From a virus, in the IMG/VR virus record IMGVR_UViG_3300024353_000005, positions 1 to 64,000 of that record: 64,000 nucleotides of DNA. The stretch is one strand, 5' to 3'. Below the pieces are notes generated by a model. That model worked only from the letters and a program-made list of their open reading frames with translations. It was not told the origin of the DNA and searched no databases. Both the position numbers and the translations under genes were made by a program. Each line of letters begins with the position of its first letter. Positions within the stretch are counted from its first letter, which is position 1. Shown here piece after piece: positions 35,982 to 54,640 of the stretch.

Positions 35982-35982
35982 T

Positions 35983-36525
35983 TTAATCAATCTCCCCTTT
36001 TGGAACAAATCCATGATTGGAATTTGTATGCTTTTTGTATTTCATACTGCAAACTTTGCATTTCTCGTTCCTGCCTATCTTTCTTTCTGGTCTTTGATAA
36101 GGTTGTGCTTTTTCATCCAACATCAATCGCCCTTCCAAATGTCCGATTTCGTGCTGTGCCACTATCGCTTCCATCCCACATAAAACATATTTCGCCCTGT
36201 CAAACCCATTCTCAATGGTTATCTGCTCGTATCTCTGGGTCGTTATCTCTTTTTTCTGGTCAGGCAAACTTAAACATCCCTCTTTGTAGAATACTATTTC
36301 TCCATTATGCTCAACAATTTTGGGATTTACTAGGTCAAGCTTTTCCTTATTAGGAATACGAATGATAGCAACTTTAGCATCAATGCCGATTTGATTTGCT
36401 GATAAACCTATTCCATTTTTGTGCTGGGTTAATTCGGCTTCAAGTTTTGAAATGATTTCCTTTACCTGTTCCTGACTAACATCTTTGCAAGGAACTCGTA
36501 ATTGTTTAACATTAGTGACTATCAT
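35983..36525 (-). CDS. def: peptide deformylase with C-terminal SEC-C-like motif
   Basis: GIGLSANQ, EGCLS, QHEIGH; tail KIGRNEKCKVCSMKYKKH. Confidence 0.9.
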   Translation of the reverse strand: MIVTNVKQLRVPCKDVSQEQVKEIISKLEAELTQHKNGIGLSANQIGIDAKVAIIRIPNKEKLDLVNPKIVEHNGEIVFYKEGCLSLPDQKKEITTQRYEQITIENGFDRAKYVLCGMEAIVAQHEIGHLEGRLMLDEKAQPYQRPERKIGRNEKCKVCSMKYKKHTNSNHGFVPKGEID

Positions 36526-37094
36526 TTATTTTCCTTATAAGCTAATGATACGATTTTGAAAGGCTCAGAAACCCCACCACTAAAATAAGAAGCACATTTT
36601 AATGCCCTTTGAACTTTAACTTTAGCACAAATTTTCCAACCTTGTAACGCATATATGACTCCGAGAGCGTAGTCCTCTCCACAACCTGTTGCAATATAAT
36701 CTGTTTCATCACATGCTACCTGAAAATCATTCTCAACAGTATATAAATTATCTTTATAGCCAATTATAAATGTTCCCCCTGTTTCCTGATTATTTTCAAC
36801 TTTGGTATAGCCATTTTTCTTTAGGCACTTTTTAACAGCATCGATAAAATCTGTTACTAAATATTCGTAATCGCTTTTAGATGATTTTTGCTTCGGAATC
36901 TTTAACTTATATCTTAATAGTTGCCCCATTCTAAAAGAGGAAGTGAAACCAAATATCATATTCCCATTCTGAAATACTTTTTCATCTTTCCTAATTCTGA
37001 CATCTAAACCAGATACTCCAGCCGAGTCTCCACCGATGTAAAGTATTCCAGCCTCTCTATCATTATATCCGACTATACAAGTGGTAGTTTTCAT
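36522..37094 (-). CDS. HslV-like Ntn-hydrolase peptidase
   Basis: N-terminal TTCIVG...GGDS, TGCG..YALG. Confidence 0.75.
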   Translation of the reverse strand: MKTTTCIVGYNDREAGILYIGGDSAGVSGLDVRIRKDEKVFQNGNMIFGFTSSFRMGQLLRYKLKIPKQKSSKSDYEYLVTDFIDAVKKCLKKNGYTKVENNQETGGTFIIGYKDNLYTVENDFQVACDETDYIATGCGEDYALGVIYALQGWKICAKVKVQRALKCASYFSGGVSEPFKIVSLAYKENK

Positions 37095-37420
37095 TTTATT
37101 CTTTTCCTAATGTTCTTATAAGGAGTTGGTTTATGACCAAGTATCCCACCAGTTTCTGTGTCTATCTTAATCCAATATTTGGCTCTCGGATTAAAAACTT
37201 GAACTCTATTTTTAATATTCCTATTTCTCATTTTTATCATCCTTAATCTCTTTCGCCTCGAATAGAACCAAGTGCGCAATCTTATCTAATTTTTCAACTG
37301 CTTCAAGTATAATCTGTTTAAAGTGCTTATGAGATTCGTGCCTTAGTTCTATCTCCAAAAGCTCGACTTCCAGTTCTTTGAGTTCGAGATAGATTTTTCC
37401 GAGTCTGCGACAATCCGAGT

Positions 37421-37801
37421 TCATTTTATTTTCTCCCAATCTTTTCCATTCCAAATTTTATTATACTTCTCCTTCATCACAAACGCTAGCCAGAGTTGTT
37501 CAAATGATTTGAATTGTAACCAAGGTTTATCTTTTTCATTAAACAATGCTCCTACTCTATTATAAAAATGTAACAGTAAATGCTGAACATCTTCTTTTGG
37601 TGCTACCATCTCCTGCAACTGGTCTTGGCGAGGGAGCCAGATTTCTTTATACTTATCATTCAAAAAGTATACACAACTCTCGTCAAAATAAGTTACAGAA
37701 GTTTGAGAATAAGCAGTCATTGTTCTACATCTAAAAGGACATAAATTCTGTATCTCCTCCGCCTTCTCGCACATCTTTATGTATTCTTTGGAAGTGTCCA
37801 T
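37421..37801 (-). CDS. hypothetical phage protein
   Basis: YIKMCEKA.EIQ...WLPRQDQLQEM...EQLWLAFVM pattern. Confidence 0.6.
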   Translation of the reverse strand: MDTSKEYIKMCEKAEEIQNLCPFRCRTMTAYSQTSVTYFDESCVYFLNDKYKEIWLPRQDQLQEMVAPKEDVQHLLLHFYNRVGALFNEKDKPWLQFKSFEQLWLAFVMKEKYNKIWNGKDWEKIK

Positions 37802-37802
37802 T

Positions 37803-40097
37803 TTACCTCCCGATAAAATCCTGAAAGTAAGTTTCCATTTCCTCTCTCGAAGCCTCTACTATCTTAGAAAAATTCTTATAAAACTTGTAATATAATTTTC
37901 CCTTAAAACCGCCTGTTTTATTCTTGATAACGCTTATCTCGATAACAGGCTGTGATTTCCCATTCTCATCCACAAAATATAAAGTGCTGTCATCCCGCAA
38001 ATCAAAATCATTATAGAGCAGTGCCGTAAAATCGGAATCGAACTGCAAGTCAACGCACTCCTTTATATCGTCGCCCAGTGGCCTTCGTAGCGAGTTTATT
38101 TTCTTGAGTTCGGCTGTAGCCACGACTGGAATGTCATAATCGGTTTTCCACCTTTTCAACGTATCCGATACATACATATATGTTTCCCTTACCGAGCCGA
38201 ATCTTAATTCGCTTTTTATCCTGTGCAGATTATCAACGATTACAATCAACTGTTTCTTGCCTGCAATTTCCTTATAAATCCTGATGTATTTTTCCATTTC
38301 CTCTATGCTACGAATATCGTTTTCCTCTTTTACAGCAAACGAACTCGACAAGGATTTCAAGTTGGTCATCGCTTTTTCACGGACTTTGAGCAATTCTTCG
38401 GCTCTTTCGGGTTCGAGTTCCTTATTATATTTAATCTTGAATTTTGGATTTGACACAGTATTTATTTCCAAGTTGGTATCGGCAGCAATTATTCTAGGAA
38501 GTATCTGCCTGATATTATCGTCAATAGAAAAGAACAATACAAAAACATCATTATATTTCGTAAGATTTAGGGCTAAATTTAATAAGACTGCCGACTTTCC
38601 TATGTTTGTTTGTCCAGCAAGCAAATAGAAAGCATTTTGTAATCCATCTAATTTTTTTGTGAGTATTGGATAACCAGTTTTCAGACCCAAAAGTCCACTG
38701 CCCCTTGACCAAGCCCAAGACTCGAATTGGTTTACCTCAGTTTCAAGAGACGATTTTTCTTTCAGTATATCCCGTGAGGTTAATAAATACCTTCCCTGTC
38801 CCAACTTCTTATTCCGTTCTACTTCCTTTTTAAGTGCCTCAAAAGTAACATCCAAAACCTCGGCTAAATCCCTTATCATCTGCTCAGTAGTTACATAATC
38901 TTCCTCGCTGACTACTAATTGTATCAGGTCATTTTTAAGAAATTCGTTCCCCTTATTATTTTTTAAGTCCTTGAGTTTCCACTCAAAAATGGTAAACTCT
39001 GGCAGATTAAGAAAATCCTCTGTGCTATGGCTTTGCAAATATTCATCTGGGTCTTTGTTCCCATTTGGCTCCTTGATAAAAACCTCTATATCCCTTTTCG
39101 CTTTTAATTTCTCCTCGATAATTCGGGTGGTCGCCTCTTTTCCCGCCTCATCATTGTCAAGGCAGAGTGTTAATTGTTTAATTCGGTTATATACCAAGAG
39201 GTCATATTGTTTGTCGCTAAATCCCAAGCCACCCAAAGCGATAACATTATCTACTCCTCGCAAAGCCAAAGACCACACATCAGCATAGCCTTCAACAAGA
39301 TAGACTTTGGGATGATTTTTCGCCTCTTTTAAATTATATAATATCTCGGCTTTCTTATACAAATTAGTCGCCCTAAAGTTAATATATTTCTGTTCCCCAT
39401 TTTTATCGCTTAATCTCCTGCTGGCGAACCCAGTTATCCTGCCATAGCCATCTCTGATAGGAAATACTAATCTGTTATTTAAAACGCCTTTGGCACTATT
39501 CTGGTTTTTCTCATTTGCTTTATCTGTTAAACCAGCCATTTCAAGTTGCTCTCTGGTATATCCCCGCTTTAAAAGATTAGCGATTAACTTGTCATAAAGA
39601 CAGTAGCCAAACTCAAACTTGTCTATGATTTTATCCCATCGCCTTTTTCTGATATAATCCTTGACTTTTTTCAACGATGAGTGTTCTTGTTTTATTACTG
39701 CTTTCATCATCTTGTTAGCCACTTCCAAAATTTCCCTTAACTGGCTTGCTTGCTTTTCTCTATCGCTTATATCCTCTACCTCATAAGAGATACCAAATTT
39801 TTTTGCCAAGTATAAAACATTGTCGGTAATAAACTCGTTTCCTGTAAGTGGCTTGCCTTCCAAAAAATAAGCACAAGCAAATATATCAGCATTGGATACA
39901 TCATCGCACACGAAACATTTGATATGCTCATCATCAGGAAAAAATGTTGCTGATGGAGAGTTATCATCATTTCTGTGATTAGAACGACAGGGACAAGTCA
40001 GGTGATTTCCCTCAAAATTTGTATCATGTTCTTCTAAATAATCCCGCAGATATGGTCTTATTTTATTTTTAAGTTCTTCTAAATTTTTTATTCGCAT
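37803..40097 (-). CDS. DnaG primase-DnaB helicase fusion
   Basis: Zn-binding CPC...H...CFVC, RLVFPI, KYIN, TOPRIM VEGYAD/DND.AG, Walker A GQTNIGKS, VDN. Confidence 0.92.
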   Translation of the reverse strand: MRIKNLEELKNKIRPYLRDYLEEHDTNFEGNHLTCPCRSNHRNDDNSPSATFFPDDEHIKCFVCDDVSNADIFACAYFLEGKPLTGNEFITDNVLYLAKKFGISYEVEDISDREKQASQLREILEVANKMMKAVIKQEHSSLKKVKDYIRKRRWDKIIDKFEFGYCLYDKLIANLLKRGYTREQLEMAGLTDKANEKNQNSAKGVLNNRLVFPIRDGYGRITGFASRRLSDKNGEQKYINFRATNLYKKAEILYNLKEAKNHPKVYLVEGYADVWSLALRGVDNVIALGGLGFSDKQYDLLVYNRIKQLTLCLDNDEAGKEATTRIIEEKLKAKRDIEVFIKEPNGNKDPDEYLQSHSTEDFLNLPEFTIFEWKLKDLKNNKGNEFLKNDLIQLVVSEEDYVTTEQMIRDLAEVLDVTFEALKKEVERNKKLGQGRYLLTSRDILKEKSSLETEVNQFESWAWSRGSGLLGLKTGYPILTKKLDGLQNAFYLLAGQTNIGKSAVLLNLALNLTKYNDVFVLFFSIDDNIRQILPRIIAADTNLEINTVSNPKFKIKYNKELEPERAEELLKVREKAMTNLKSLSSSFAVKEENDIRSIEEMEKYIRIYKEIAGKKQLIVIVDNLHRIKSELRFGSVRETYMYVSDTLKRWKTDYDIPVVATAELKKINSLRRPLGDDIKECVDLQFDSDFTALLYNDFDLRDDSTLYFVDENGKSQPVIEISVIKNKTGGFKGKLYYKFYKNFSKIVEASREEMETYFQDFIGR

Positions 40098-40592
40098 AGA
40101 TTATAATTATCCTCTCCAAAATATCTGCCACAAACCTTTAATAACTGTAGCAACTAAAAATCCCACCAGTCCAATAAGACAGAGCATAAGAAATCCTGCT
40201 ATTATTTGATAAAGTATTGTCATTTATTTTCTTTCTGGGTAGTTAAATACCCTTCTGTTCCATATAATTCCATACTTATTGTCTTTAAATCATTTAGTTT
40301 TGCATAAATAGCAGGAAATGTGGAATGTTCTGATTTATCTGCCGACCAAAAATATAAATCTTTAAATATATTTGACTTTAACCAAGTATTGTGTTTTGCC
40401 TTATAACAATGAGGCATCATATTTCTTAGTTCTTCTTTAGACAATACTTTCATTTCTCCACCTTTATATGCAATCGTTCCAAGATAGTGTCCACGACAAA
40501 ATACTCCCTCGCAACATCGTATTCCTCTCCCGAAGAAAGTATTTTCTCCACAAGGTTAATCAGTTTCCTGTATTTTCGCTTGCTAATATATC

Positions 40593-40820
40593 TCATACTT
40601 TTTTTAAAGTTCTCTTCTTTATTGTCCACTCACTTACCCAAACAAGTGCTCTATCATTTTTAAGTCGGATTTGATATCTAGTCACAGAATTATGTGAACC
40701 CATTGGTACTCTCATTCTATCCATAAGTATTCCTGTTTGACCACTATAAAATCCTGCAATAATTTCAACCCTATCTTTATAATGAAACTTTACGATTTTC
40801 TTTTTCTTTCGCCCAAACAT
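40593..40820 (-). CDS. KOW/SH3-like small protein
   Basis: DRVEIIAGFYSGQTG KOW-like motif. Confidence 0.45.
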   Translation of the reverse strand: MFGRKKKKIVKFHYKDRVEIIAGFYSGQTGILMDRMRVPMGSHNSVTRYQIRLKNDRALVWVSEWTIKKRTLKKV

Positions 40821-40822
40821 TC

Positions 40823-41701
40823 TTATCTGCTCCTTTCATTATTTTTAATAAATTTATCACCATCTATCGTTTCCCGAAACTTGCGATTTCGCTTTATCCG
40901 ATGAATATCCTTTATCACATACTCGTTTGCAAAAGTCCGCAATAATCCTGTGTGCATAGATAGCCGTCTTTCCTCAGCTTTCTTGAAAGACCAGTCCAGA
41001 AAATCTGGGACATCGTTTGCGGTCATATTGTTTTTCTCGAACTGCCTGATGAGGTTATTCATCTTAATACTGTCCATCGCCCAGTTCGGTGTGTATTTCT
41101 TCCCATAGGCATTGTTAAATTTGGACAGGAACACTCTCACCAGATAAGGTGCGTTTATCCTTCCCTCTTTGTCGGTAACTTTCTTCCTTGTATTCTTGGA
41201 ATTTTTTTCAAGTGTGGTTGACAGATTTTTCAGAAACTCGTTTGCTGGAAATCTTCCACCCAAAATTTTAAGTGCTTTTCTCAACTTATACCAGCTCGGA
41301 TATTTCCAACTGTCCAAAACTGGATTAAAGACATAAATCTTCGTTCCCTCTTTGATAAAAAATCCCACCCTATCAATGGCCTGCTTGACCAGATTTTTCT
41401 TTCCCTTCAAGGTCTGCAAGAAATCCTGCTGAAAATGCTGTGCGATTTCCTTCTTGACTATAAACTCTTTCAAGACAACAGAACCCACAATATTATAATC
41501 TATCAGGCTATCCAGAGTAAGCGAGCCAACTGTGCTGTCTAATCCGATTTGGAGGCTAAGGTCTTTTAGGCTGACTTTTTCGAAATTTCCCTTATCTGAA
41601 TAAAAATAATATGTAAATAGCAGAAGCAAAACATTAATCTGCCTCTTGTTCAGTGGTAACAGATTTAGTGCGATGAGTAAATCTTGGAAATCGGTTTTCA
41701 T
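40823..41701 (-). CDS. hypothetical protein, possible replication initiator (wHTH-like N-terminus)
   Basis: located upstream of the primase-helicase; weak HTH-like pattern. Confidence 0.35.
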   Translation of the reverse strand: MKTDFQDLLIALNLLPLNKRQINVLLLLFTYYFYSDKGNFEKVSLKDLSLQIGLDSTVGSLTLDSLIDYNIVGSVVLKEFIVKKEIAQHFQQDFLQTLKGKKNLVKQAIDRVGFFIKEGTKIYVFNPVLDSWKYPSWYKLRKALKILGGRFPANEFLKNLSTTLEKNSKNTRKKVTDKEGRINAPYLVRVFLSKFNNAYGKKYTPNWAMDSIKMNNLIRQFEKNNMTANDVPDFLDWSFKKAEERRLSMHTGLLRTFANEYVIKDIHRIKRNRKFRETIDGDKFIKNNERSR

Positions 41702-42357
41702 TTACTCTCCTCTATGTTATTTAGGGTTTTTTTTACACCAAATTATAAAATGAATAGCTATAGCTATAAAAATTATAACCAGAGCCCAAAAACAGTTCCT
41801 TGCTATTCCCTTACATATTGTATAAATTATCTCATAGCCTTCTATCTGTGTCATTTAATCTCCACATCTTTTATTTGGTTGCACCCTGTATAATTAACAA
41901 AATCAATATACTTCATAAGTTCATATTCTTGTCTATATTTTATTACCTTCCAAATTTCTATAAACAAACCATAATCTGTTTCCTGTACCAAATTGATTTT
42001 ATTTGGATTAATCAGAGTTCCATTAGTATCGTTCTCAGCTAAACATTCATGATATATTTGCCTATTTTTTTCTGTGTAAATTCTAACCCTAAAATGTAGA
42101 GAAAATAGCCCAATGATAAATACTAAACTAAAAAGTAATAGTATTCCTCTATATAAAAATATTTTTTTCATTTTTTCCTCCTATCTGCCTAAAATTTTAG
42201 CCCCGTAAAAAATAAAGAAATTGATAGCCCCAAGCAAATAGTTAATAATACCTGTAGTCAACTGTATCGGTCTGATTAACAAGCAGCAAGTTCCTGATAT
42301 TATAAAGGCGATTACTGTTATAGGTTGGGCTATTCTTAAAATTATCTCTAACATTTT

Positions 42358-43071
42358 TTATTCTCCCCGATTAAATTTTAGAATTTTTTGTTTCGCTTTA
42401 TGTAAATCTTTTAGTTCATGTTCCCAAAAGATTAAAGTCTGATAACCGTAGGCTCCATAAACTATTGATCTTCGCTTATCTCTTTTTTTAGTATCTTTTC
42501 TATTGTGCCAATAATCGCCATAGAGTTCTATTATTTTCTTCTGACCATTATAATTTATGAAATCTGGATTTAATCCTCCCAATATAACTTTTCCATTTCC
42601 GACATATTTATATTCATTTGGCAAGATTTTCTGAAGAAATTTATCTAATAGTTTCTCTGGTTTATTAGGCTTTATCCTTAAAGATTTCATCCATTTTTTA
42701 ATTACTCTATTTTTATACTCTTTATTCTGCCATCTCTTTAACATATTTCTTTTAAATTTTCTTTTCGTTTCTAAACTATGTTTATAACCTTCCAACGATT
42801 TACTAATTCGATCTTTAATATTTTTGGAGATAATATGACCTTTTAGGGCTTCGCTTTTAGTTCTTATTTTTATACTGTATTTTTTCAAATATTGTCTAAT
42901 GGTTACATCGCTACAATTAAATATTTTAGCAATTTTCATTGATGATTTTCTATTCTCGATATATTCTTTAATCAAATATTGTTTAGTTATGGGGTATTTT
43001 TTGGGCCTTTTTAAAGCCGCTAATCTCATTTTCTGTTTAGTCTCTTTTGTATGTTTTGAGTTCAGCTTCAT
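42358..43071 (-). CDS. homing endonuclease, NUMOD3/HTH plus Vsr/DUF559-like (EDxHD) domain
   Basis: KHTKETKQKM and HSLETKRK NUMOD3 repeats; PDF...IIELYGDYWH...D...WEHE. Confidence 0.85.
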   Translation of the reverse strand: MKLNSKHTKETKQKMRLAALKRPKKYPITKQYLIKEYIENRKSSMKIAKIFNCSDVTIRQYLKKYSIKIRTKSEALKGHIISKNIKDRISKSLEGYKHSLETKRKFKRNMLKRWQNKEYKNRVIKKWMKSLRIKPNKPEKLLDKFLQKILPNEYKYVGNGKVILGGLNPDFINYNGQKKIIELYGDYWHNRKDTKKRDKRRSIVYGAYGYQTLIFWEHELKDLHKAKQKILKFNRGE

Positions 43072-43231
43072 TTCAAAGTGTCCGCAGAATAGGCATAGCC
43101 ATCTACGATAAAGAAATAAGTCTTGTCCTTATAAATGCCAGTTCCACCACAAGCCCTACAGTTCTTATCCTTGCCTTTGCAGATATAGCACTTTGCCTTG
43201 TTTATTCTGGTTATGACCTCTAATTTCTTTT

Positions 43232-43594
43232 TCATTTTATCTCCTCTATAACTTTATGTATTTTTATCATTTCATTTGCAAAATTTTCTGCTTCGGTTTT
43301 TTCATCTAAATTAATTGTTAAACATTGATTAGGTTCTTCTGTAGGAATATAAGTTACTGTTTTAGTAATTTTAGTTTCAGAATTAGTAGCATAAATCTTA
43401 AAAGTATATTTCTTATTTGGTTCAAGTATCATTATAAAGGAATTTTCACCAGATAATCGCATATCATTAGAGAATACTGCATCTATATTATAAGTAAGGC
43501 TTGGTTCTATATTTATCTTTACATACACTACATCCAAAGAAGAACAACCCATAACAAATAAACTAATTAAAAATAAGCAAATTAATTTCTTCAT
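43232..43594 (-). CDS. putative lipoprotein
   Basis: signal peptide with lipobox VMGC. Confidence 0.6.
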   Translation of the reverse strand: MKKLICLFLISLFVMGCSSLDVVYVKINIEPSLTYNIDAVFSNDMRLSGENSFIMILEPNKKYTFKIYATNSETKITKTVTYIPTEEPNQCLTINLDEKTEAENFANEMIKIHKVIEEIK

Positions 43595-43863
43595 TTCATA
43601 TCTCCTTTCTATCCAGTTTCTCCCTAATCGCTAAAGCCCTATCTATAAGCCTATCCCAGTTCTTTCGCAAATTTCTGGCTGTATCAAAACGAAAGCCCTC
43701 TTCCTTCAATTGGTCAAGGGCCATTTTGAATATACTTGGTGGGTTCTGGCGTTCAAAAGCATTGTAGATAAATTCTTCAACCTCTCTGTCTGTAACAGGA
43801 TAGGTCATTTTTCTATCTTTTCTCAACTTTTTACCCCTCACTATATAGTGTTTTTCAGACATT

Positions 43864-44205
43864 TTACAAGTACCCCTTAAGAGATTTTTTCAAATTATTT
43901 TTAGCACAATTGAGATACTCACTAACAGCTTGTTGACTAATTCCCAAAATTTTCCCTATTTCCTTCTGCTTCTTATTCTTTATGAAGTATAATTTAATAC
44001 ATTGTCTTTGTTTTGGTGTCAAACTTTTTAGGGCCTTTCTAACTACTTTAGCAAGGTGCTCATGCTTCTTCTGAGTAACATCAAACTCGTTTTCCTCCTC
44101 CTCAATGAGAATTTCCAAAGGAGTCTTGGGTTCTTGTTCCTCTCTTAACAGTTCCAAAGTTCGAGCAGTCTTACCTCGAAATATTTCCTTGTATTGTTTG
44201 GGCAT
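43864..44205 (-). CDS. sigma-70 region 4 domain protein (transcription regulator)
   Basis: LTPKQRQCIKLYF......EIGKILGISQQAVS. Confidence 0.8.
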   Translation of the reverse strand: MPKQYKEIFRGKTARTLELLREEQEPKTPLEILIEEEENEFDVTQKKHEHLAKVVRKALKSLTPKQRQCIKLYFIKNKKQKEIGKILGISQQAVSEYLNCAKNNLKKSLKGYL

Positions 44206-44214
44206 AATTTTCTC

Positions 44215-44775
44215 CTATCTCACAGTTACATTAACATCAGTCTCTACATCTGTTTCATTAGTATTCTCATTGGTGTTAGTATTATTATTTGTTGTTGTAG
44301 CAGTTCCAGACCCACCTGTTGCAGAATTAGTTATAGTTCCTGTATAAGCTGTAGAAGTTATATTGCCCACAGAAGAACTACTTTGAGAAGCAATAGTACC
44401 CATATTTACACTTTGATTAAATCTTATTCTTTTAATAGCGTCTGTTACTTCTCGTAATGGCATACCTTGAGCAATTAAGTACTCTCTCATTGCTTGAGCT
44501 TTAATAATTTCTATCTTAATTTCGTGTTCTCTTTGTATCTCAGTCTCGACTTGTCTTGTCCTCTCAATCATCCGTTGTTTATAATGCTCCTGCTCGGATA
44601 ATCTTTCTTTCTCAGTTAAATTTCCCTGCAAATAGATACACCCATCTTTTTCGTAGTACTCACCTTTTAAATCTAATTCATTAGCTTTTGCTCCCCTTCC
44701 AAAAATTAGCAGAAAACCTACTATCACCAAAATTGTCACCACCATCCTAATTAAGCCTACTACTTCTTTTCTCAT
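44215..44775 (-). CDS. secreted/membrane protein with Thr/Asn/Ser-rich tail
   Basis: N-terminal hydrophobic segment with AKA cleavage-like site; low-complexity C-terminus. Confidence 0.6.
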   Translation of the reverse strand: MRKEVVGLIRMVVTILVIVGFLLIFGRGAKANELDLKGEYYEKDGCIYLQGNLTEKERLSEQEHYKQRMIERTRQVETEIQREHEIKIEIIKAQAMREYLIAQGMPLREVTDAIKRIRFNQSVNMGTIASQSSSSVGNITSTAYTGTITNSATGGSGTATTTNNNTNTNENTNETDVETDVNVTVR

Positions 44776-44964
44776 TCTATCCTCTTTCTGCTTGTATTAT
44801 AGCCAAATTTTTCTCTGGCCTCTATGAGCTATTTCTGAAGTTGCTACTTTACTATTCCATTTACAGTTTTTATTTTGACAATCTTTACAACCATTAAGCC
44901 TATCGAGTTCCTTTTTATAAAATTTATCCTTCTTTTCTCCCCTTTTCCAAGCCTCCTTTTCCAG

Positions 44965-45066
44965 AAAATAAAAAAGCCGAACCACCACAATATTCGGTAG
45001 CTCGGCTATCATTTCTGACCCGTAGCTTTGCGCTTCGCTATTTCAGCGAATTGCCTTTATCGTAAT
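44965..45066 (-). ncRNA. c-di-GMP-I (GEMM) riboswitch 2 with intrinsic terminator
   Basis: AAAGGCAA-TTCGCT-GAAAT-AGCGAA-GCGCAAAGC...GGGTCA-GAAA-TGATAGCC-GAGCTACCGAA; terminator AGCCGAGCTACC/GGTGGTTCGGCT + TTTTTATTTT. Confidence 0.9.
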
Positions 45067-45120
45067 CTAAATTGTATATTAAAGTTACACTACTTTAGAG
45101 ATCCTCCAATTTCTCTCCTA

Positions 45121-45224
45121 AAATAAAAAGCCGAATTGCCTATCCTTCGGCAACTCGGCTTCGCTTAAAGCGACCTTGAGTTTTGCGCCCCACTAATTCA
45201 GTGGGTAGCCCTTTCGGAGATAGT
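45121..45224 (-). ncRNA. c-di-GMP-I (GEMM) riboswitch 1 with intrinsic terminator
   Basis: CGAAAGGGCTA-CCCACT-GAATT-AGTGGG-GCGCAAAAC...GGTCGC-TTTAA-GCGAAGCC-GAGTTGCCGAA; terminator AGCCGAGTTGCC/GGCAATTCGGCT + TTTTATTT. Confidence 0.85.
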
Positions 45225-45248
45225 ATTAAATTTCAACCTGTAATATTA

Positions 45249-45277
45249 AGTATACACTATAAAATCTAATTTGTCAA
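45249..45277 (-). promoter_or_regulatory. sigma70-type promoter driving the riboswitch leader
   Basis: TTGACA-N17-TATACT. Confidence 0.85.
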
Positions 45278-45281: not shown

Positions 45282-46787
45282 CTAATTTTTATTTTTTTCA
45301 AATCTACTTTTTTCTCGTAATACCTGCAAAAATATATCTACTAATTCTGGATCAAATTGTTTTCCCTTCTCTCGTTCCAATTCTTCTATTGCTTGTTCCT
45401 TAGTTTTAGGATTTCCATTATAGGGTCTTTTGTGTATCATTGTATCATAACTATCTAAAATAGCAGTAATACGAGAAAGTAAAGGGATATTCTGACCTCT
45501 CAATCCATCAGGATAACCAGTTCCATCCCATCTTTCGTGGTGGCGTAATATGTAATCCGCTATATGAGAAAATTGCCTTACCCCTTTTAAAATGTTATAG
45601 CCTAAAATTGGATGAGTTTTCAGCTTTTTCCATTCTTTTTCAGTTAAAGGTTCTTTTTTATGAAGTATTCTGTCTGGAATGCCTATCTTACCTATATCGT
45701 GAAATTTAATAGTATAATGTAAATCTCTTATTTCTTGAAGTGATAAATGAAGTCTTTTAGCGAATTTAGCTCCCAATTTTATTAATCTATTATGATGTAT
45801 TTGAGTTCCCATATCTTTTTGTTTCATAACTTCAATTAAACTATTAATAAATTCTTTCTGAGCAGTGCCTTCTTTATCCATTTTATCTTTATACATTTCT
45901 TCATCTGCTTTAGATATATATCTATTTAAATCTTCTTTTTTAAATTCAGTTATTGTAATAGATCCAATAGCATAGTTAATATTAATTTTTTTAACTTCTA
46001 AAGAATAAGATTTACATTTTCTATTTAATTTCTTAATAATTTCTTCTGCACGACTTCGGTCTGTTTGTTTAAGAAGGATTGAAAATTCGTCCCCCCCAAT
46101 TCGTGCTACTACATCGTCTTGTCTTACGCAATTTCTCATAGACTTTCCAAAATATCGAAGTATCTTATCCCCTGCTGGATGTCCCCAAGTATCATTAATA
46201 ATTTTTAAATGATTTACATCTATTGAGATTATAGAAATGGGATAGTTTCTTTTAGTATTTATTCTTCTCAATTCTTCTTCAAAATAAGTTCTGTTATATA
46301 ACTCTGTCAACGAGTCGTGATAGGCATTATATTTTATCTGCTCTTGTAATTTTCTGTGCTCAATTCTACTTTTTTGTAATTGCAATTTTATTTGTCGCTT
46401 TGTTTGTCTTGCCATATACTCTTGAAAACTTGTTTTTATAACCTCCAGAAAAGTTAATGTGTCATAGGGTTTTATCAAAAGCTTTTTAATTCCTATTTCT
46501 AACAATTGTTGTGTTTGTTTTAATGTTAAAATTAAACCAGTTATTACTATAATACAAGTGTCAGGATAATTTAATTTTATATAATAAGCTAAATCTACCC
46601 CATTTCCATCAGGTAATTCAATATCAATTATTACTACTCCAATATTATTTTCTTTGAAGATTTTCAACCCTTCCTGAAAAGAATTAGCAATTAAAGTTTT
46701 ATAACCCTGAGCTTGAAGATTTATAGAAATAGCTTTTGCTAATTCTTTGTCATCTTCTATAATAGCTATTTTAGGAATATTATTCAT
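45282..46787 (-). CDS. REC-GGDEF-HD-GYP c-di-GMP synthase/phosphodiesterase
   Basis: REC: IEDD, DIELP, ITG, KP; GGDEF: NDTWGHPAGD, I-site RQDD, GGDEF; HD-GYP: HDIGK, HHERWDGTGYP. Confidence 0.95.
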   Translation of the reverse strand: MNNIPKIAIIEDDKELAKAISINLQAQGYKTLIANSFQEGLKIFKENNIGVVIIDIELPDGNGVDLAYYIKLNYPDTCIIVITGLILTLKQTQQLLEIGIKKLLIKPYDTLTFLEVIKTSFQEYMARQTKRQIKLQLQKSRIEHRKLQEQIKYNAYHDSLTELYNRTYFEEELRRINTKRNYPISIISIDVNHLKIINDTWGHPAGDKILRYFGKSMRNCVRQDDVVARIGGDEFSILLKQTDRSRAEEIIKKLNRKCKSYSLEVKKININYAIGSITITEFKKEDLNRYISKADEEMYKDKMDKEGTAQKEFINSLIEVMKQKDMGTQIHHNRLIKLGAKFAKRLHLSLQEIRDLHYTIKFHDIGKIGIPDRILHKKEPLTEKEWKKLKTHPILGYNILKGVRQFSHIADYILRHHERWDGTGYPDGLRGQNIPLLSRITAILDSYDTMIHKRPYNGNPKTKEQAIEELEREKGKQFDPELVDIFLQVLREKSRFEKNKN

Positions 46788-48610
46788 TTTTTCTCTCTCA
46801 AATAAACCATTCGTCTTACACATCCCGCAGGAATTAGTATAGGCTCATCTTCAGGATGACCATTTATTCTCTTCAGAACAACTTTCTCTTTATCCTTATG
46901 CCATAAATAACCAACGATTTTTATTTCAGGCAATACTAAATCTTCTATTTTCCATACTCCTTTACCATAAGAAATCATATCTACGAGGGTAATCTCTACT
47001 CGCTTGTATTCTCTTTTCCTTTTACCCATCTTTATTCTCCTTTATATTTCCATAATTTTGATAATCAGCCAACAAATTAAAAGAATTAATAATACTGCTA
47101 ATAACAGCATCTCATTTCCCCTTCTTTCGATACTCATTAAATAATCTATTTCTTTCCAGCGGACAATCCTTACAACTCTTTCTCTTACAAATCCAACAAA
47201 GAGGCTCTGTGTTCTTTAAGATATAATCAACATTTTCCTCTAAATGTTTAATTGCCATTGCTTTTTGTAAAAATACTCTTGGATTAATTTTCATTTATGT
47301 CCCTTTTTTATACTAAAAATCTTCTTACAACTCATACAAAGACTTACTCGTTGTTCCTGACTATTTGAAAATTTAATGACTACCTTCTGTGTATTCTCAC
47401 TTTTACAATATGGACAACAATTATTTTTCATTATATCTCCTTTATCTATCTGGTTTATATTCCTCTTTTTCCCGATAAATTAAGTAAGAAACTAGAAACA
47501 AGAAAACGATTAATCCTATTCCTATCTTAAGTAAAAACATTTTATAGTCCCCCTTGCTATTTTATATTAAAGATGAAAGAAGACAAGATAAAATCTCTGT
47601 TAAGATATAGCCAATCCGTAAAATCAACAAGCCAAAAACTATTGCAAGACTAACAACTGCTACAGTAAATATGTTTTTATAAGTCATTTTATCCTCCTTA
47701 TTTATAGTTCTACTATTTTGTAATCTTGGGCACAATTCACTCTCGCCCATTGTTCGGCACTATGCCCACTTCCAAAAAAGATAACATCCCCCTCTTCATT
47801 TCTATCTATACTACAATTGTCATAAGTATCTTTAACATACTCGATTACGATGTACATTATTTTATTCTCCTATTAAAATTCTTTTTTTACTCCGAGATAC
47901 TTTGCTATCTTCTCTGCAATTTCTGCTTTCTTCTTAAGGTCAGTCAAATCAATATGAAAATAGTTAGCATACTCTCTTAATTGTTTTGTGGTTAATTCAC
48001 ATCTTAGCATTTGCCAATCGGTTTTTCTCATTCCTTTATGCCTCCATTCCAATATGTTTACAACAAGTTTTACACATTAAAACTACTGCTTCTTCATTAT
48101 TTTTTTCCAGAACCAAATTAGCTTTTTCATATTTTATCATTAAATCTATTCCGATATCTTTAATAGTAAAAGCAAAGGGTGATTGTTCATTGCCACAAGT
48201 CTTACAATTAGGATATAATACATTTTCATCTCTACTATATACTTTTGTGCCTAAGATTAATTTACTCATTTTTTCTTTCCCTTTATTATCTCTACTAATT
48301 TAGAACATTCATCCAATATTTGACTTTCGTTTACTTATCCTAGCCCTTCTAAATACAAAGTCTGTATTAACATAATAATAATCATAATATAAATCTGAAG
48401 ATATAACTAAATTATTATGTCTTCCCTTATCTTTTCCAAGAACTTCTAATAATTTTTGGGTTTCTTCAGGAGATAACCAATCTACCAATGTAAAAGCCTT
48501 ATCATTCATAGTCCACTTAGCATCCATTATCTTTCTCCAACTTTTGTTAATCTCTATTTTTCTTTACTCCCTTTAATTGCTTTCGACCCGCCATTGATTT
48601 AACCTATATC

Positions 48611-51028: not shown

Positions 51029-51057
51029 AGTATACCATATTTTAGGGTGTTTGTCAA
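51029..51057 (-). promoter_or_regulatory. sigma70-type early promoter
   Basis: TTGACA-N17-TATACT. Confidence 0.8.
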
Positions 51058-51512
51058 GTTTTATTTTTATATTCTTTTAGCAGAATGCTCGCTATTCTGG
51101 ATGCGTTTCTTTCTAACTTCTGCCTAACATGGCTATTTATATCCACGACATTCGTTCTCCATTCCTCAAAATATTTTCCAAACCATCTGGGGTATCTATA
51201 TTTCTGCAAGTAATGAGCGGTTTCGTGTGCTACTATAAAATATAGTCTATCAAAAAACTTCATTGGTGGGACTGCTTCTGCGTATCTATTTATATCCTTA
51301 AATTCCTTTAAAAACTTTAATCCATACAATAAAAAATTTTCGTTTTGTTTATAAGTACAATTTGGATATAAAAAGTTAAATTCTATTTCAATAAGAGGCA
51401 GTTCAAGCCTCTTCATAATTTCCCAACTCCACTGCCTAATCACATTTTTTAATTGCTCATTCTCATCCATTTTAACATCCTCGATTTTGGGGTTTACTTT
51501 TCTAAGTTGCAT
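51054..51512 (-). CDS. HExxH zinc metallopeptidase-like protein
   Basis: VAHETAH...LERNA. Confidence 0.65.
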   Translation of the reverse strand: MQLRKVNPKIEDVKMDENEQLKNVIRQWSWEIMKRLELPLIEIEFNFLYPNCTYKQNENFLLYGLKFLKEFKDINRYAEAVPPMKFFDRLYFIVAHETAHYLQKYRYPRWFGKYFEEWRTNVVDINSHVRQKLERNASRIASILLKEYKNKT

Positions 51513-53821
51513 TTCCCTACTTTTTCACTTTTCGCAATATCAGTTAAGCAACTCATTATTTTTGCTATCATAACCTCGTTCGCATTAAGAAGTTATATCC
51601 ATTTACTACACAATGTAGTATTACTATAAGATATAGATTTATTATAATCTGAAGCAAGTCTAGTTCTCAAAATCGCCAATTTTTCGCCTATATCCTCCTA
51701 TCATAAAAAGAGTTATGCCAATCTTCAACAAAATATAGTAGAAATCGTACTATTGTTATATATTATATATGCTCTATATAGTAACTGATAATATAGGATC
51801 GGTTTAGGGATTTAGTTTATCATTTACTTGAAATTTCTTATATGCCTTTTCTGCCCGTTCAGCATAAGCAAACCAGTAATCCTTTTTCTTGGTATTGCCA
51901 GCTTTTTCAAACTGTTCGGCTTTCTTAAGTGCCTCGTTTACCAGAGTCATATTGTAAGACATTTTAGTTCTCCTTTTTTATATTTCTCATAAACGCAATT
52001 AAATCTACAATTCTTTTCTGTAGCTATTAAATTAGTCCATTGTCTCCATTTTTTAACAAATCTATATATTTTACAATAGAAAAACCTAAGACTAAACCAC
52101 CTAAAGGCTCTCCAATTAATAATGCGATTAATCCTATAACAGAGAAAACAGTAAACCCTACAGTATGAAATATTTTTTTTCGCAATGTAAGTTTAATCAT
52201 TTTATTCTTCCTTTCAATTATATATACTCGTTATGATAACTTAATTCTCTAACACAATTTTCATAAGTTCCAGTATAAACACAATGGCTAAAGATATAAG
52301 CTGAATAAGTCCCATCATTATTTTTAATAATTCTAACTGCTCGCACTTTATTTACTCCTTATATTCTGCATTTGTAGATTTTCTTATAGTAACATTATTT
52401 ACATTTAATTCTGCATCAATAGCTACTGCTAATCTTTCAGCGTATTTAAAAGCACATTCATATGGTTGTCCTAGTCCTAATTCTAATTTCATTGTTACAG
52501 TATAAATTTCTACAACTTCTAAGTCATATCCTCCAGCGTCTCCTAATTTCCATACATTAATTTTTAAACCATTATACATTTTAGCCATTATTTTTTCTCT
52601 TTCTCTTTAGTTTCTTTTTCCGTCTTGTTCTTTTCTTAGGCTGTTTCTCAAAGTATTCCCTCTCCTTTTGTTTATGTATCTCAAGCCACCTTAAGTATTT
52701 TTGAGCTTGGTTAAGAGCCTTCCTCTGCCTCTCATTCCCTCTTTCTTCAAACTGTCGGCTCAATTCTAAATCTTCGGCTATTACGAGCCAGAAAGTCAAA
52801 TTTTTTGGCATCTTAGGCTTTTTCATTTTATCTCCTTTAAATATTTTTTAAGACATCTATTACAAGGAACATATCCAAAATGCCTCATATAAAATCTATC
52901 TAAAGAAAACTTTTCTTTCCGAGTTTTCCACGAAAGTAAACCATTATACCTTTCCCAGACAAACTGTAAGACACAACATAGAGGGTATCTATATCTAAAC
53001 ACTCCCCCCACAAAATCAGCTAATAAACCTTTGAAAGTTGTTTTTTTATAGCAACAAGCATAATCAATATCTTTCATTTTATTTACCCCATATAAAATAC
53101 AATATTTTAAGCATTTTTTCCATCAATTTCGGCACAGTATTGTAAGTTTCCTTAATTATATCTTCTGTTCGTTCAAGTCCATTTTTCTTTATAGACTCCC
53201 TCACACAGTCATATATTCTAGCCCTGGCCAAAATTTTAATCGCTTCTTCTGGAGTATATCCCTCTTTATTTTTATCAATAAAAGGATAATTCTCTCCCAT
53301 CTCATCATATTGTCTATCGCTATCGAATATCATTTAATCCTCCTCTAATAGTTCTTCTACCTCACAAAAATTATCTCCAAATTCTTCTTTGAGAAGTTTT
53401 ACATCTTCTTCGTCATTCAAATCCATACCAGCACTTTGTAAAATATCTTCAGCAATAGTATCTTGCCCATACATTAATACTGTTCTTACTGCTATAAGTA
53501 TTCCTCTTGTTAAATACTCTTTTTGTATCTTTGTTAAATTACTCATTTTATTCTCCTTTTATAATTAGATTTTCTAACAATAATACTTGCTATCAAAAGA
53601 GGGATTAGCAAAACCAATAAAGTGCCGAGTAATATGTTTACAAATTCATTCATTTTATCCTCCTGTATATTTATCCTTTATGCTTTGCTCGTCTCCGATA
53701 CTTCTTGTTTCTATAGTTCTATTGCAAGTTTTACAAAGGCCAGCATAAACTCTTTTAGTTTCATCATATTGCAATTCTATAATCTCTCTACATTTTGAGC
53801 ATTTAAAGACTTTGTAGATAA

Positions 53822-54283
53822 TCATTTTAAATCCTTTCCCTCGATTTGGTATTGTAGTGCTTCTGCTATATGCTGGCCTTTGAGTTCTTTGGAGTCGTCT
53901 AATTCTGCGATAGTCTTTCCTACCCTAATAGTAGAAGATAACTCTTTACAATTAAGGTTAAGTTCTTTCATAGCAGTTTTCAAAAGTTCTTTTGCTTCCC
54001 CATCTATCTTTTCTTCAAAAGTGATATCTTCAAATCTAATATCTGGAGCTTTAACTGTAATATCTGTATAAGGTAAAGCCTTTTGATATTCTTCTATTTC
54101 TTTTAGTTCGCAAGAACATTCCCTATTTTTACTCAAATAATTTCCACAGGGGCAAGGTTTGAAGGCAGGAAGAGTAGCCCCCTCGTAAATTTCAGGATTG
54201 TTCGTAATAATTTTATAGGTGTGTTTACCTGCTTTTGCTACCTCAATAGCTCTTTCAACTAAAGGGCTAATTTTTACTTTCAT
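53822..54283 (-). CDS. miniaturised ComM/YifB (Mg-chelatase-like) homolog
   Basis: VERAIEVAKAGKH, PCPCG.....CSC...I..Y, R...TIA.LD.......HIAEALQY; no Walker A/B. Confidence 0.75.
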   Translation of the reverse strand: MKVKISPLVERAIEVAKAGKHTYKIITNNPEIYEGATLPAFKPCPCGNYLSKNRECSCELKEIEEYQKALPYTDITVKAPDIRFEDITFEEKIDGEAKELLKTAMKELNLNCKELSSTIRVGKTIAELDDSKELKGQHIAEALQYQIEGKDLK

Positions 54284-54611
54284 TTGATTTTCCTTTCTTT
54301 TAAAGTAAGTAGCGGTTTAACCCTATATCCACCGCAAAGGTTTCGGGAAGCAGGAGGCGACCTGCAATATCCTTATTTTATCCTTCAAGTTTTCCAAGTA
54401 TTAACAAACTTAATATGATTATTGATGTTGTCAAAACAATCCTTAATGTGCTTCTATATATTTTTATTCTCTTATTATCTCTTTCATTTTTTCCTCCCAT
54501 ATATTCTATTATTTCAGCGGTCTTTCCAAATAAATCATACATAAAAGGATGATTTAACAATTTCATTTTACACCCCATTCTTAAAAAGTCAATAAGTATA
54601 ATCCTATCTTA

Positions 54612-54640
54612 AGTATACCACATAAAATCCATTTTGTCAA
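54612..54640 (-). promoter_or_regulatory. sigma70-type early promoter
   Basis: TTGACA-N17-TATACT. Confidence 0.8.

What the first reader, a model, noticed from the sequence alone, without database searches (positions are those of the whole stretch)
44965..45277. Tandem ON-type riboswitches positioned to gate the ~45 kb replication block
Seen: in both units the terminator's 5' arm (AGCCGAG.T.CC) is the aptamer's own P3/P1 3' strand, so ligand binding should prevent termination. By eye I found no further consensus sigma70 promoter downstream, and genes are co-oriented and often overlapping down to position 1. Known: tandem riboswitches sharpen dose response. Inference: a near-digital c-di-GMP gate on the early-to-middle transition. 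Internal phage-specific promoters cannot be excluded.
Basis: partly seen in the sequence, partly recalled or inferred. Interest (0 to 1): 0.85.

Follow-up and report, generated by a model that had tools for sequence, protein, structure and literature searches.

The report
Tandem c-di-GMP riboswitches in a phage
A roughly 100-kb bacteriophage carries two c-di-GMP-sensing RNA switches in a row, each built to stop transcription unless the signal is present, placed between its early genes and its replication genes, right after the phage's own c-di-GMP enzyme gene.

Summary
On the minus strand, a near-consensus promoter (45277-45249) is followed by two c-di-GMP-I aptamers. Unit 2 scores 57.1 bits and unit 1 scores 33.5, just under Rfam's cut-off of 35. 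Unit 1's ortholog in a complete related phage scores 50.9. Each aptamer's 3' strand is also the 5' arm of a strong intrinsic terminator, so the layout is ON-type, as in the tested Bacillus thuringiensis Bc3-5 tandem.

The placement is unusual. The promoter is the last of four near-identical early promoters in the 81.7-kb record. The two switch terminators are the only coding-strand terminators my scan found there. A complete 106-kb relative has the same arrangement at the same collinear position.

Both lineages carry a GGDEF gene directly upstream, and the two enzymes are only 30% identical. The first gated genes encode a membrane or secreted orphan protein and a stand-alone sigma-70 region-4 protein.

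Three points count against "gates all 45 kb". Close relatives have the same replication block with no switch. No expression data exist. Internal promoters cannot be excluded.

Verdict: a real tandem ON riboswitch, so a new member of a known kind. The whole-block gate, and a timer fed by the phage's own enzyme, are plausible but unproven.

The parts
45249..45277 (-). Promoter-like site TTGACA-17-TATACT. It is the last of four near-identical early promoters.
   Evidence: repeat family D1. Both hexamers are conserved in relative G001 at 29583-29649.
45146..45220 (-). Aptamer 1, c-di-GMP-I-like, the weaker copy.
   Evidence: RF01051 33.5 bits, below the gathering score of 35. RF03167 31.0 bits. 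Its ortholog in G001 scores 50.9 bits. Helices P2 and P3 are kept through changes on both sides.
45118..45162 (-). Terminator 1 (14-pair hairpin plus U tract). Its 5' arm is the 3' strand of aptamer 1.
   Evidence: (-21.6 kcal/mol), and folds.
44993..45065 (-). Aptamer 2, c-di-GMP-I.
   Evidence: RF01051 57.1 bits, E 1.6e-08. Its ortholog in G001 scores 49.3 bits.
44965..45007 (-). Terminator 2 (13-pair hairpin plus U tract). Its 5' arm is the 3' strand of aptamer 2.
   Evidence: (-20.5 kcal/mol), and folds.
45282..46823 (-). 513-aa REC-GGDEF-HD-GYP protein gene. Its stop codon is 5 nt from the promoter's first hexamer.
   Evidence: Pfam GGDEF 3.8e-39, HD_5 8.5e-35, Response_reg 1.4e-16. GGDEF, RxxD and HD..GYP motifs were read in the translation.
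44799..44960 (-). Spacer between terminator 2 and the first gene. It is a remnant of a 55-aa Zn-finger gene and has no in-frame start codon.
   Evidence: Similar to the stretch that holds an intact 55-aa ORF in L017 (987..1154).
44215..44775 (-). First gated gene: a 186-aa orphan protein. By eye it has an N-terminal hydrophobic segment, a charged helical middle and a Ser/Thr/Asn-rich tail.
   Evidence: No Pfam or PHROG family. Homologs sit in the same slot in L004, and elsewhere in L006 and L017. Atlas hits are all below 0.8.
43864..44205 (-). Second gated gene: a 113-aa stand-alone sigma-70 region-4 protein.
   Evidence: Pfam Sigma70_r4 4.6e-12. PHROG sigma-factor families. The best PDB sequence matches are C-terminal parts of FliA/WhiG-type sigmas, best E 1.5e-4.
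51029..56203 (-). Early region holding the other three promoters of the family, at 56203..56175, 54640..54612 and 51057..51029.
45..43862 (-). Co-oriented downstream arm. It includes primase-helicase (37803-40097), a PolA-type polymerase (16159-18699), RecA (10784-11803), an SbcC-like gene (1469-3139), methylases and homing endonucleases.
   Evidence: No coding-strand terminator passes my scan. Collinear with G001 30.0-73.7 kb at about 82% nucleotide identity.

Best explanation
These are two complete c-di-GMP-I riboswitches in series, both transcriptional ON switches. Host RNA polymerase starts at the last early promoter (45277) or reads in from upstream early promoters through the GGDEF gene, which has no terminator of its own. 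It then meets two strong intrinsic terminators.

In each unit the terminator's 5' arm is the P3/P1 3' strand of the aptamer. If c-di-GMP locks the aptamer while the RNA is being made, the terminator cannot form and polymerase passes. Both units must be open for a transcript to continue.

The genes released first are a membrane or secreted orphan protein and a stand-alone sigma region-4 protein. No further coding-strand terminator was found, so read-through probably continues into the replication genes.

The ligand is probably set at least partly by the phage itself. A c-di-GMP enzyme gene lies directly upstream in both lineages that carry the switch.

Shown: the sequence anatomy, the family match, conservation in a second lineage, and the promoter and terminator distribution. 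Inferred: ligand binding, ON behaviour in vivo, how far read-through reaches, and the role of the phage enzyme.
For: Family match. Unit 2 scores 57.1 bits. Unit 1 scores 33.5 bits. The orthologs in the complete relative G001 score 50.9 and 49.3 bits, both above the gathering score of 35, and they are the only 2 matches in 106,111 b.

Ligand-contact positions. In the alignment both units have G, C, A, G and C at RF03167 model positions 10, 34, 37, 66 and 75. By my offset arithmetic these are Vc2 G20, C44, A47, G83 and C92. The roles of G20, A47, C92 and of the conserved inter-helix pair come from passages of PMC4744006 and PMC5888326. The numbers C44 and G83 come from that arithmetic and my recollection.

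Structure. RNAalifold on 10 sequences recovers P2 and P3, and 5 of 13 predicted pairs keep pairing through changes on both sides. Ligand-free minimum-energy folds form both terminators, while truncated nascent RNAs form P2 and P3.

Same architecture elsewhere. Look-alike units in Omnitrophota assemblies are built the same way, as is the Bc3-5 tandem (PMC4759541 section 4).

Placement. The promoter family has 4 of 4 copies on the coding strand, and this one is the last. The terminator scan gives 2 minus-strand hits in 81,674 b, both of them the switch terminators. In G001 it gives 4 plus-strand hits: two at about 13 kb, which lie in the oppositely oriented gene block, and the two switch terminators. 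No multi-subunit RNA polymerase gene was found in G000 or G001, so host polymerase, which obeys intrinsic terminators, is the likely enzyme.

Coupling to an enzyme. GGDEF genes occur in 3 of 3 records with the switch and in 0 of 2 related records without it. The window's GGDEF domain is only 30% identical to G001's, although neighbouring proteins are 78-94% identical. Two different c-di-GMP enzymes therefore occupy the same slot.
Against: There is no binding or expression data of any kind.

Unit 1 of this window is below Rfam's cut-off. Compared with its ortholog it has a one-nucleotide-shorter J1/2 joint, UA in place of the AAA bulge, and a GAAUU loop in place of a GNRA tetraloop. It may bind weakly or not at all.

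Relatives L006 and L010 (primase 84% identical) have the sigma-like gene and the replication genes with no switch, no GGDEF gene, and no terminator or family promoter within the 18.8 kb held for L006. L017 has a GGDEF gene but no switch. The gate is therefore dispensable for this gene block, and the enzyme can exist without it.

Two generic 11-of-12 promoter matches lie downstream, at 22136 and 17453. The 17453 site is kept in G001, though within coding sequence that is 92% identical anyway.

G001 encodes a full ECF-type sigma about 45 kb downstream, so phage-specific promoters that my scans cannot see are likely.
Confidence: 0.65

Rival explanations
1. Local accessory cassette. The switches control only the genes just downstream: the 186-aa envelope protein and perhaps the sigma region-4 protein. 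Replication genes are driven by internal promoters that consensus scans do not recognise. The pair would then be the phage counterpart of c-di-GMP-ON control of surface proteins in bacteria, not a developmental gate.
For: In both switch-bearing lineages the 186/193-aa gene is the first gene after terminator 2. In the Omnitrophota locus L025 a look-alike ON unit precedes a large protein whose N-terminus looks hydrophobic by eye. The region between the 81-aa gene and the sigma-like gene is a swap zone: GGDEF genes of different origin, homing endonucleases, and the 55-aa gene present, absent or decayed. Relatives run the same replication block without any switch.
Against: No terminator-like hairpin follows the 186-aa gene. 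The sigma-like gene starts 9 nt after its stop, and genes stay tightly packed for 44 kb. No repeated motif that could mark internal promoters was found. Promoter-like counts in 5-45 kb do not exceed shuffles.
Confidence: 0.3
2. In this window only unit 2 is a working sensor. Unit 1's aptamer has decayed, so its terminator acts as a constitutive, leaky attenuator. The 'tandem' would then be functional only in the G001 lineage.
For: Unit 1 scores 33.5 bits against a cut-off of 35, while its ortholog scores 50.9. It is changed at conserved positions in J1/2, the P2 bulge and the P2 loop.
Against: The five positions I map to ligand contacts and to the inter-helix pair are intact. P2 and P3 differ from the ortholog by paired, compensating changes rather than by disruption. 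A dead aptamer on a -21.6 kcal/mol terminator would block the promoter's own transcripts, which selection should remove.
Confidence: 0.15
3. The units are OFF switches, or they sense another dinucleotide such as 3'3'-cGAMP.
For: Rfam's clan competition listed both units under the c-di-GMP-I-GGC variant in the E-value search. GEMM-I relatives with other ligands exist (recalled, not checked here).
Against: Both units have A, not G, at the model position that names the GGC variant, and G at the G20-equivalent. Both are below that family's cut-off of 59. Unit 2 scores higher against RF01051 (57.1 against 50.4). No alternative antiterminator hairpin exists. The terminator itself consumes the aptamer strand.
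Confidence: 0.05

Closest known systems
Bc3-5 triple-tandem c-di-GMP-I riboswitch of Bacillus thuringiensis (PMC4759541; abstract and section 4 read)
   Same: Complete c-di-GMP-I units in series. In each, the terminator uses the binding-site C, the P1 3' strand and part of the P3 3' strand, so the units were predicted to be ON switches. In reporter tests the triple tandem was more stringent and more digital than the double tandem or a single unit.
   Different: That one is bacterial and chromosomal, with three units, in front of a surface-protein operon. Here there are two units in a phage, behind an early promoter, next to a phage c-di-GMP enzyme gene and ahead of a sigma-like regulator and replication genes. 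The two units here are not recent duplicates of each other.
c-di-GMP-I riboswitches in the lysis module of PhiCD119-like prophages of C. difficile (PMC3649979, passages read)
   Same: A c-di-GMP-I aptamer carried by a phage genome.
   Different: Those are single units in the lysis module of a temperate phage, with no adjacent c-di-GMP enzyme reported in the passage I read. Here there are back-to-back units at the early/replication boundary. No tyrosine integrase was found in the complete relative.
Tandem c-di-GMP riboswitches as a class (PMC12452182, passages read)
   Same: That survey finds c-di-GMP to be one of three riboswitch families enriched for contiguous arrangement. The enrichment is in the form of complete tandem units, which are expected to need both ligands bound.
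   Different: The word 'phage' does not occur in that paper's main text (0 occurrences), so the survey appears to cover cellular genomes only.
Look-alike ON units in Candidatus Omnitrophota assemblies (L025, L055, L063, L090)
   Same: These are the closest sequence matches to unit 1 among the 41 candidate units I compared, with crude identity of 0.73-0.79. They have the same terminator overlap.
   Different: They are single units in bacterial contigs. The margin over other phyla is small (Bipolaricaulia 0.74), and the candidates were pre-selected by my own pattern. This is a host hint only.

Membership tests
c-di-GMP-I riboswitch aptamer (Rfam RF01051, GEMM-I) | Covariance-model score at or above the gathering score (35 bits) | tested here: met
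   Unit 2: 57.1 bits. Orthologs in G001: 50.9 and 49.3 bits.
c-di-GMP-I riboswitch aptamer (Rfam RF01051, GEMM-I) | The same score test, applied to unit 1 of this window | tested here: not met
   33.5 bits against 35. E 2.8e-6 per genome. I accept it as a diverged member because of its ortholog and its kept helices, not because of the score.
c-di-GMP-I riboswitch aptamer (Rfam RF01051, GEMM-I) | Two helices (P2, P3) on a short P1, supported by covariation | tested here: met
   RNAalifold on 10 sequences: 13 predicted pairs, 5 with changes on both sides. The P2 stem and the distal P3 stem differ completely but still pair between unit 1, its ortholog and unit 2.
c-di-GMP-I riboswitch aptamer (Rfam RF01051, GEMM-I) | Ligand-contact nucleotides G20, A47 and C92, and the inter-helix pair C44-G83 (Vc2 numbering) | tested here: met
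   Both units carry G, A, C and C, G at the aligned model positions. Mapping to Vc2 numbers is my arithmetic. The residue roles come from PMC4744006 and PMC5888326. The numbers C44 and G83 are recalled.
c-di-GMP-I riboswitch aptamer (Rfam RF01051, GEMM-I) | GNRA tetraloop on P2 docking into a receptor on P3 (recalled to be optional; 'type 2' members lack it) | tested here: not met
   The window's P2 loops are GAAUU and GAAAU. The unit 1 ortholog has GAAA and the Omnitrophota look-alikes have GUAA.
c-di-GMP-I riboswitch aptamer (Rfam RF01051, GEMM-I) | Binds c-di-GMP | not testable with these tools
   Needs in-line probing, ITC or equilibrium dialysis.
c-di-GMP-I-GGC variant (RF03167) | G at the A47-equivalent position and a score of at least 59 bits | tested here: not met
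   Both units have A there. Scores are 50.4 and 31.0 bits.
Transcriptional ON riboswitch with intrinsic terminator | G+C-rich hairpin plus U tract whose 5' arm overlaps the aptamer's 3' strand, with no separate antiterminator | tested here: met
   Overlaps of 17 and 15 nt. Hairpins of -21.6 and -20.5 kcal/mol with at least 6 T in 9. Mutually exclusive folds.
Transcriptional ON riboswitch with intrinsic terminator | Ligand-dependent read-through | not testable with these tools
   Needs single-round transcription or reporter assays.
Tandem riboswitch (complete units in series) | Each aptamer has its own expression platform, in one leader behind one promoter | tested here: met
   Order: promoter, aptamer 1, terminator 1, aptamer 2, terminator 2, within 313 nt. 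The order is conserved in G001 and G002.

The most novel reading that the evidence does not exclude
A phage-run second-messenger checkpoint. An early phage enzyme makes or tunes c-di-GMP. In the complete relative this enzyme is a bare 172-aa GGDEF protein. In this window it is a REC-GGDEF-HD-GYP protein that could take input from a host kinase. That ligand opens two serial riboswitch terminators, which are the only coding-strand terminators in the arm. Opening them lets host RNA polymerase leave the early region and enter the sigma-like regulator gene and the 45-55 kb replication arm. A full sigma-factor gene lies near the far end of that arm in the relative. The early-to-middle switch of a large phage would then be timed by a small molecule acting on RNA, rather than by a protein antiterminator or a new sigma factor.
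Probability: 0.25. Interest if true: 0.85.

Novelty: new member of a known kind. Interest (0 to 1): 0.6.

Why it matters
Temporal gene control in phages is known to run through proteins: new sigma factors, antiterminators, polymerase modifiers and phage polymerases. A small-molecule riboswitch pair placed as the only barrier between early and replication genes, next to a phage gene for the matching enzyme, would be a different solution. It would let the phage time its own programme, or couple it to the host's c-di-GMP (biofilm versus motile) state.

The idea is directly testable with a 550-nt template and purified polymerase.

Two different c-di-GMP enzymes have been slotted in front of the same conserved switch in two lineages. 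This suggests that the enzyme-switch pairing is selected for.

If only the local cassette is controlled, the finding is an ordinary c-di-GMP-ON surface-protein switch that happens to sit in a phage.

Tried and rejected
Expression data: no RNA holder listed. The look-up of sequencing runs returned one DNA run, a subsurface metagenome that may be the source sample.

Searches for named relatives that gave nothing:
- blastn (distant mode) of 43800-46900 against GenBank phages found no match.
- The search for related loci with the 513-aa protein alone and with the 186-aa protein alone found no relatives.
- Relatives came only through the primase-helicase and through protein alignments A1 and A2.

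Rfam labels rejected:
- RF03167 (the GGC variant), because both units have A at the naming position and score below 59 bits.
- The eeev_FSE hit (E 6.7), which is noise on the U tract.
- A third RF01051 hit at 63900-63983 (15.9 bits, E 0.055), which lies inside an ORF.

Search for internal promoter motifs:
- k-mers shared among 13 apparent gaps in 1-45 kb were only ribosome-binding and start contexts.
- The repeat finder families other than D1, D4 and D15 were coding repeats or start contexts.
- Nothing suggested a middle-promoter family, but short motifs would be missed.

Function of the 186-aa protein: no Pfam or PHROG family. Atlas feature scores were at most 0.79 and TM scores at most 0.35, below the tool's own levels for a lead.

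Host from riboswitch similarity: Omnitrophota units rank first for unit 1, but by a small margin. Unit 2 ranks nearest to Desulfosporosinus units. I do not rest anything on this.

Other limits:
- The T7-like RNA polymerase search (PF00940) gave no hit, but its control rang nowhere, so it shows nothing.
- My crude regular expression for GEMM-I units missed known units, so I replaced it with Rfam scans.
- Those scans found clan matches in 9 of 28 pattern-bearing viral loci. Only L132 has two aptamers, and they are 576 nt apart.
- The remaining 19 loci gave no hit at gathering threshold, and I did not look at them further.
- Literature searches for a phage-encoded diguanylate cyclase and for phage riboswitches as gates found no description of this arrangement.
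- The one phrase hit, PMC11461919, concerns a phage peptide that binds a host cyclase.
- These searches cover only the held open-access library.
Full report
WHAT THE WINDOW IS. The window is bases 1-64000 of an IMG/VR virus record of 81,674 b, estimated 77% complete. A minus-strand arm runs from about 60.5 kb down to base 45. A plus-strand arm with a portal gene starts at 61 kb.

The minus arm begins with about 15 kb of small ORFs. After the finding it carries a primase-helicase, a family-A DNA polymerase, RecA, an SbcC-like protein, methylases and homing endonucleases. No tRNA gene was found. Neither this record nor its complete relative has a tyrosine integrase.

THE OBSERVATION. On the minus strand the order is as follows.
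- The stop codon of a 513-aa REC-GGDEF-HD-GYP gene lies at 45284-45282.
- A TTGACA-17-TATACT promoter-like site lies at 45277..45249.
- Aptamer 1 lies at 45220..45146 and a 14-pair terminator hairpin at 45162..45127.
- Aptamer 2 lies at 45065..44993 and a 13-pair terminator hairpin at 45007..44975. Both hairpins are followed by U tracts.

Unit 2 is a clear c-di-GMP-I match: 57.1 bits against a gathering score of 35, E 1.6e-08 over the window. Unit 1 scores 33.5 bits, just under the cut-off, with E 2.8e-6 for the genome. The two units fold far better than shuffles (z -4.42 and -4.52, 0 of 200 shuffles as good). Aptamer and terminator overlap by 17 and 15 nt.

IS UNIT 1 REAL? Three related viral contigs were found through the primase-helicase. 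Two of them carry the same promoter and two aptamers at the collinear place. These are L004, which belongs to G001 (106,111 b, direct terminal repeats, 100% complete), and L005, which belongs to G002. They are near-identical to each other here, so they count as one lineage.

In G001 both aptamers pass the cut-off, at 50.9 and 49.3 bits, and they are the only two matches in the genome.

Between the window's unit 1 and its ortholog, the P2 stem is entirely different in sequence but still pairs. One pair of the short helix below it changes from C-G to U-A. The distal P3 stem differs from that of unit 2 at every pair and still pairs. RNAalifold on 10 sequences (4 phage units and 6 bacterial look-alikes) recovers P2 and P3, with 5 of 13 pairs changed on both sides.

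In the alignment both window units keep G, C, A, G and C at the model positions I map to Vc2 G20, C44, A47, G83 and C92. The mapping is my arithmetic. The roles of G20, A47, C92 and of the universally conserved inter-helix pair come from passages of PMC4744006 and PMC5888326. The numbers C44 and G83 are recalled.

Unit 1 of the window is nevertheless the weaker copy. Its J1/2 joint is one nucleotide shorter, the AAA bulge reads UA, and the loop is GAAUU rather than a GNRA tetraloop. I therefore treat it as a diverged member whose affinity is open.

ON OR OFF. Without ligand, the minimum-energy folds of each unit and of the whole 473-nt leader contain both terminators. RNAs cut just before the terminator's 3' arm fold into P2 and P3.

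There is no separate antiterminator. The terminator consumes the aptamer's own 3' strand, so a ligand-locked aptamer excludes it. This is the design described for Bc4 and its neighbours in the B. thuringiensis Bc3-5 tandem, whose reporter tests showed more stringent, more digital control with more units (PMC4759541, abstract and section 4). The Omnitrophota look-alikes have the same design.

ON-type is therefore well supported by anatomy, but it is not measured.

THE PLACEMENT. Four lines of evidence bear on the 'gate' idea.

(a) Promoters. The largest repeat family in the window is a set of four promoters (family D1). Written as TTGACW-N15-KGTATACT with up to one mismatch, it occurs 4 times in the 81.7-kb record. 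All four are on the minus strand, at 56203, 54640, 51057 and 45277, and a reversed control gives 0. G001 has 3 such sites at 19.6-25.5 kb, upstream of its switch, whose own promoter differs by two letters. A fifth, weaker look-alike sits at about 60270. The switch promoter is thus the last of the early promoters. Generic promoter-like counts exceed shuffles only in 45-64 kb (96 against 75.2 +/- 7.7). They do not in 25-45 kb (70 against 79.8 +/- 9.0) or in 5-25 kb (86 against 73.8 +/- 8.1).

(b) Terminators. My own scan required a hairpin of -11 kcal/mol or better and at least 6 T in 9. It finds 2 sites on the minus strand of the whole record, and both are the switch terminators. On the plus strand of G001 it finds 4: two near 13 kb, which lie in the oppositely oriented block, and the two switch terminators. 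It finds none in the following 55 kb of that arm.

(c) Gene packing. The downstream arm is tightly packed. Nearly all apparent gaps are small ORFs.

(d) Polymerase. No multi-subunit RNA polymerase gene was found. The single-subunit search had no working control. Host polymerase, which obeys intrinsic terminators, is the likely enzyme.

Together these make the pair the one recognisable barrier in the arm.

WHAT SPEAKS AGAINST A WHOLE-BLOCK GATE.
- L006 and L010 (primase 84% identical) have the sigma-like gene directly after the 78-aa gene. They have no GGDEF gene, no switch, no terminator and no family promoter in the stretch held. This shows that the block does not need the gate. It also suggests that in this phage group these genes are normally reached by read-through from further upstream.
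- L017 has a GGDEF gene, a homing endonuclease and an intact 55-aa gene, but no switch.
- Two 11-of-12 promoter matches lie inside ORFs at 22136 and 17453. The first is not kept in G001. The second is kept, but within sequence that is 92% identical.
- G001 has a full ECF-like sigma gene at 75.1-75.5 kb, about 1.4 kb beyond where the window's contig ends by collinearity. Phage-directed promoters must therefore exist somewhere.
- No RNA data were found.

WHAT IS GATED FIRST. After terminator 2 comes about 190 nt that is the remnant of a 55-aa Zn-finger gene with no start codon. That gene is intact in L017. Next comes a 186-aa orphan protein which, by eye, has an N-terminal hydrophobic segment. 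Nine nucleotides after its stop comes a 113-aa stand-alone sigma-70 region-4 protein. A regulator as the second gene means the switch could control later genes indirectly, even if read-through is limited.

THE ENZYME NEXT DOOR. GGDEF genes are present in 3 of 3 switch-bearing records and in 0 of 2 related records without the switch. The window's enzyme is REC-GGDEF-HD-GYP with intact GGDEF, RxxD and HD..GYP motifs. G001's is a 172-aa GGDEF-only protein with SGDEF and RxxD. Their GGDEF domains are 30% identical, whereas flanking proteins are 78-94% identical. L017's enzyme is 44% identical to G001's.

Two different enzymes in one slot in front of one conserved switch argue for a functional pairing. 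The simplest form is that an early phage cyclase supplies the ligand that opens the gate. This is inference.

COMPARISON WITH WHAT IS KNOWN.
- Tandem c-di-GMP riboswitches are known, and contiguous arrangement is enriched for this family in bacteria (PMC12452182 passages; PMC4759541).
- c-di-GMP-I aptamers in phage genomes are known from the lysis module of PhiCD119-like prophages (PMC3649979 passage).
- A strict pattern found 28 viral contigs. Rfam confirmed 9 of them, and only one has two aptamers, 576 nt apart.
- I found no description of a back-to-back pair in a phage, or of one paired with a phage c-di-GMP enzyme, in the held library. That library is partial.
- PHROG families that match GGDEF domains exist, so phage GGDEF genes as such are not new.

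VERDICT. The element is a genuine tandem c-di-GMP-I ON riboswitch, a new member of a known kind, in an unusual and suggestive place. I put 0.65 on the conditional-barrier explanation: an ON switch that controls at least the proximal genes and probably more. I put about 0.25 on the full reading, a self-supplied ligand gating the whole replication arm. Interest 0.6.

Noticed in passing
window 45282-46823 compared with L004 5340-5858: Two GGDEF genes of different origin occupy the same slot. Their domains are 30% identical while neighbouring proteins are 78-94% identical. One is REC-GGDEF-HD-GYP (513 aa) and the other is GGDEF-only (172 aa, SGDEF).
   Followed up: partly
window 44799-44960: Remnant of a 55-aa Zn-finger gene with no in-frame start codon, lying between terminator 2 and the 186-aa gene. 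The gene is intact in L017 at 987..1154. This hints that the switch module was recombined into an older gene order.
   Followed up: partly
window 60242-60270 (minus strand); also 51632-51661, 57652-57681 and 60751-60780: A fifth, weaker look-alike of the early promoter, with TAAGCT as its second hexamer, sits at the head of the minus-strand arm. A second repeat family of three copies (D4) also lies in the early region and may be another promoter or operator set.
   Followed up: no
G001 75103-75543 (plus strand): The complete relative encodes a full ECF-like sigma factor (regions 2 and 4, in a 175-aa open frame) near the far end of the arm. By collinearity the window's contig stops about 1.4 kb short of it.
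   Followed up: partly
L006 10001-13570: The primase-helicase of this relative is 1189 aa against 764 aa in the window. By eye the extra stretch looks like an intein with a homing-endonuclease-like insert inside the DnaB-like domain.
   Followed up: no
L017 1155-1817: The homolog of the 186-aa protein in this relative carries a run of collagen-like G-x-x repeats in place of the Ser/Thr/Asn-rich tail.
   Followed up: no
L025, L055, L063, L090 (Candidatus Omnitrophota assemblies): These hold the closest sequence look-alikes of unit 1, with the same ON-type terminator overlap. This is a weak hint at the host phylum, because the margin over other phyla is small.
   Followed up: partly
L055 2300-5500: No long plus-strand ORF follows the riboswitch look-alike in this Omnitrophota contig under table 11. 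The reason is unknown.
   Followed up: no
L132 2306-2392 and 2881-2968: Another viral contig has two strong c-di-GMP-I aptamers (87.9 and 88.9 bits) 576 nt apart.
   Followed up: no
window 42358-43071; L006 2373-3185 and 4115-4783; L017 401-1006: Homing-endonuclease-like genes are scattered through this variable region in every lineage. This may explain the gene shuffling around the switch.
   Followed up: no
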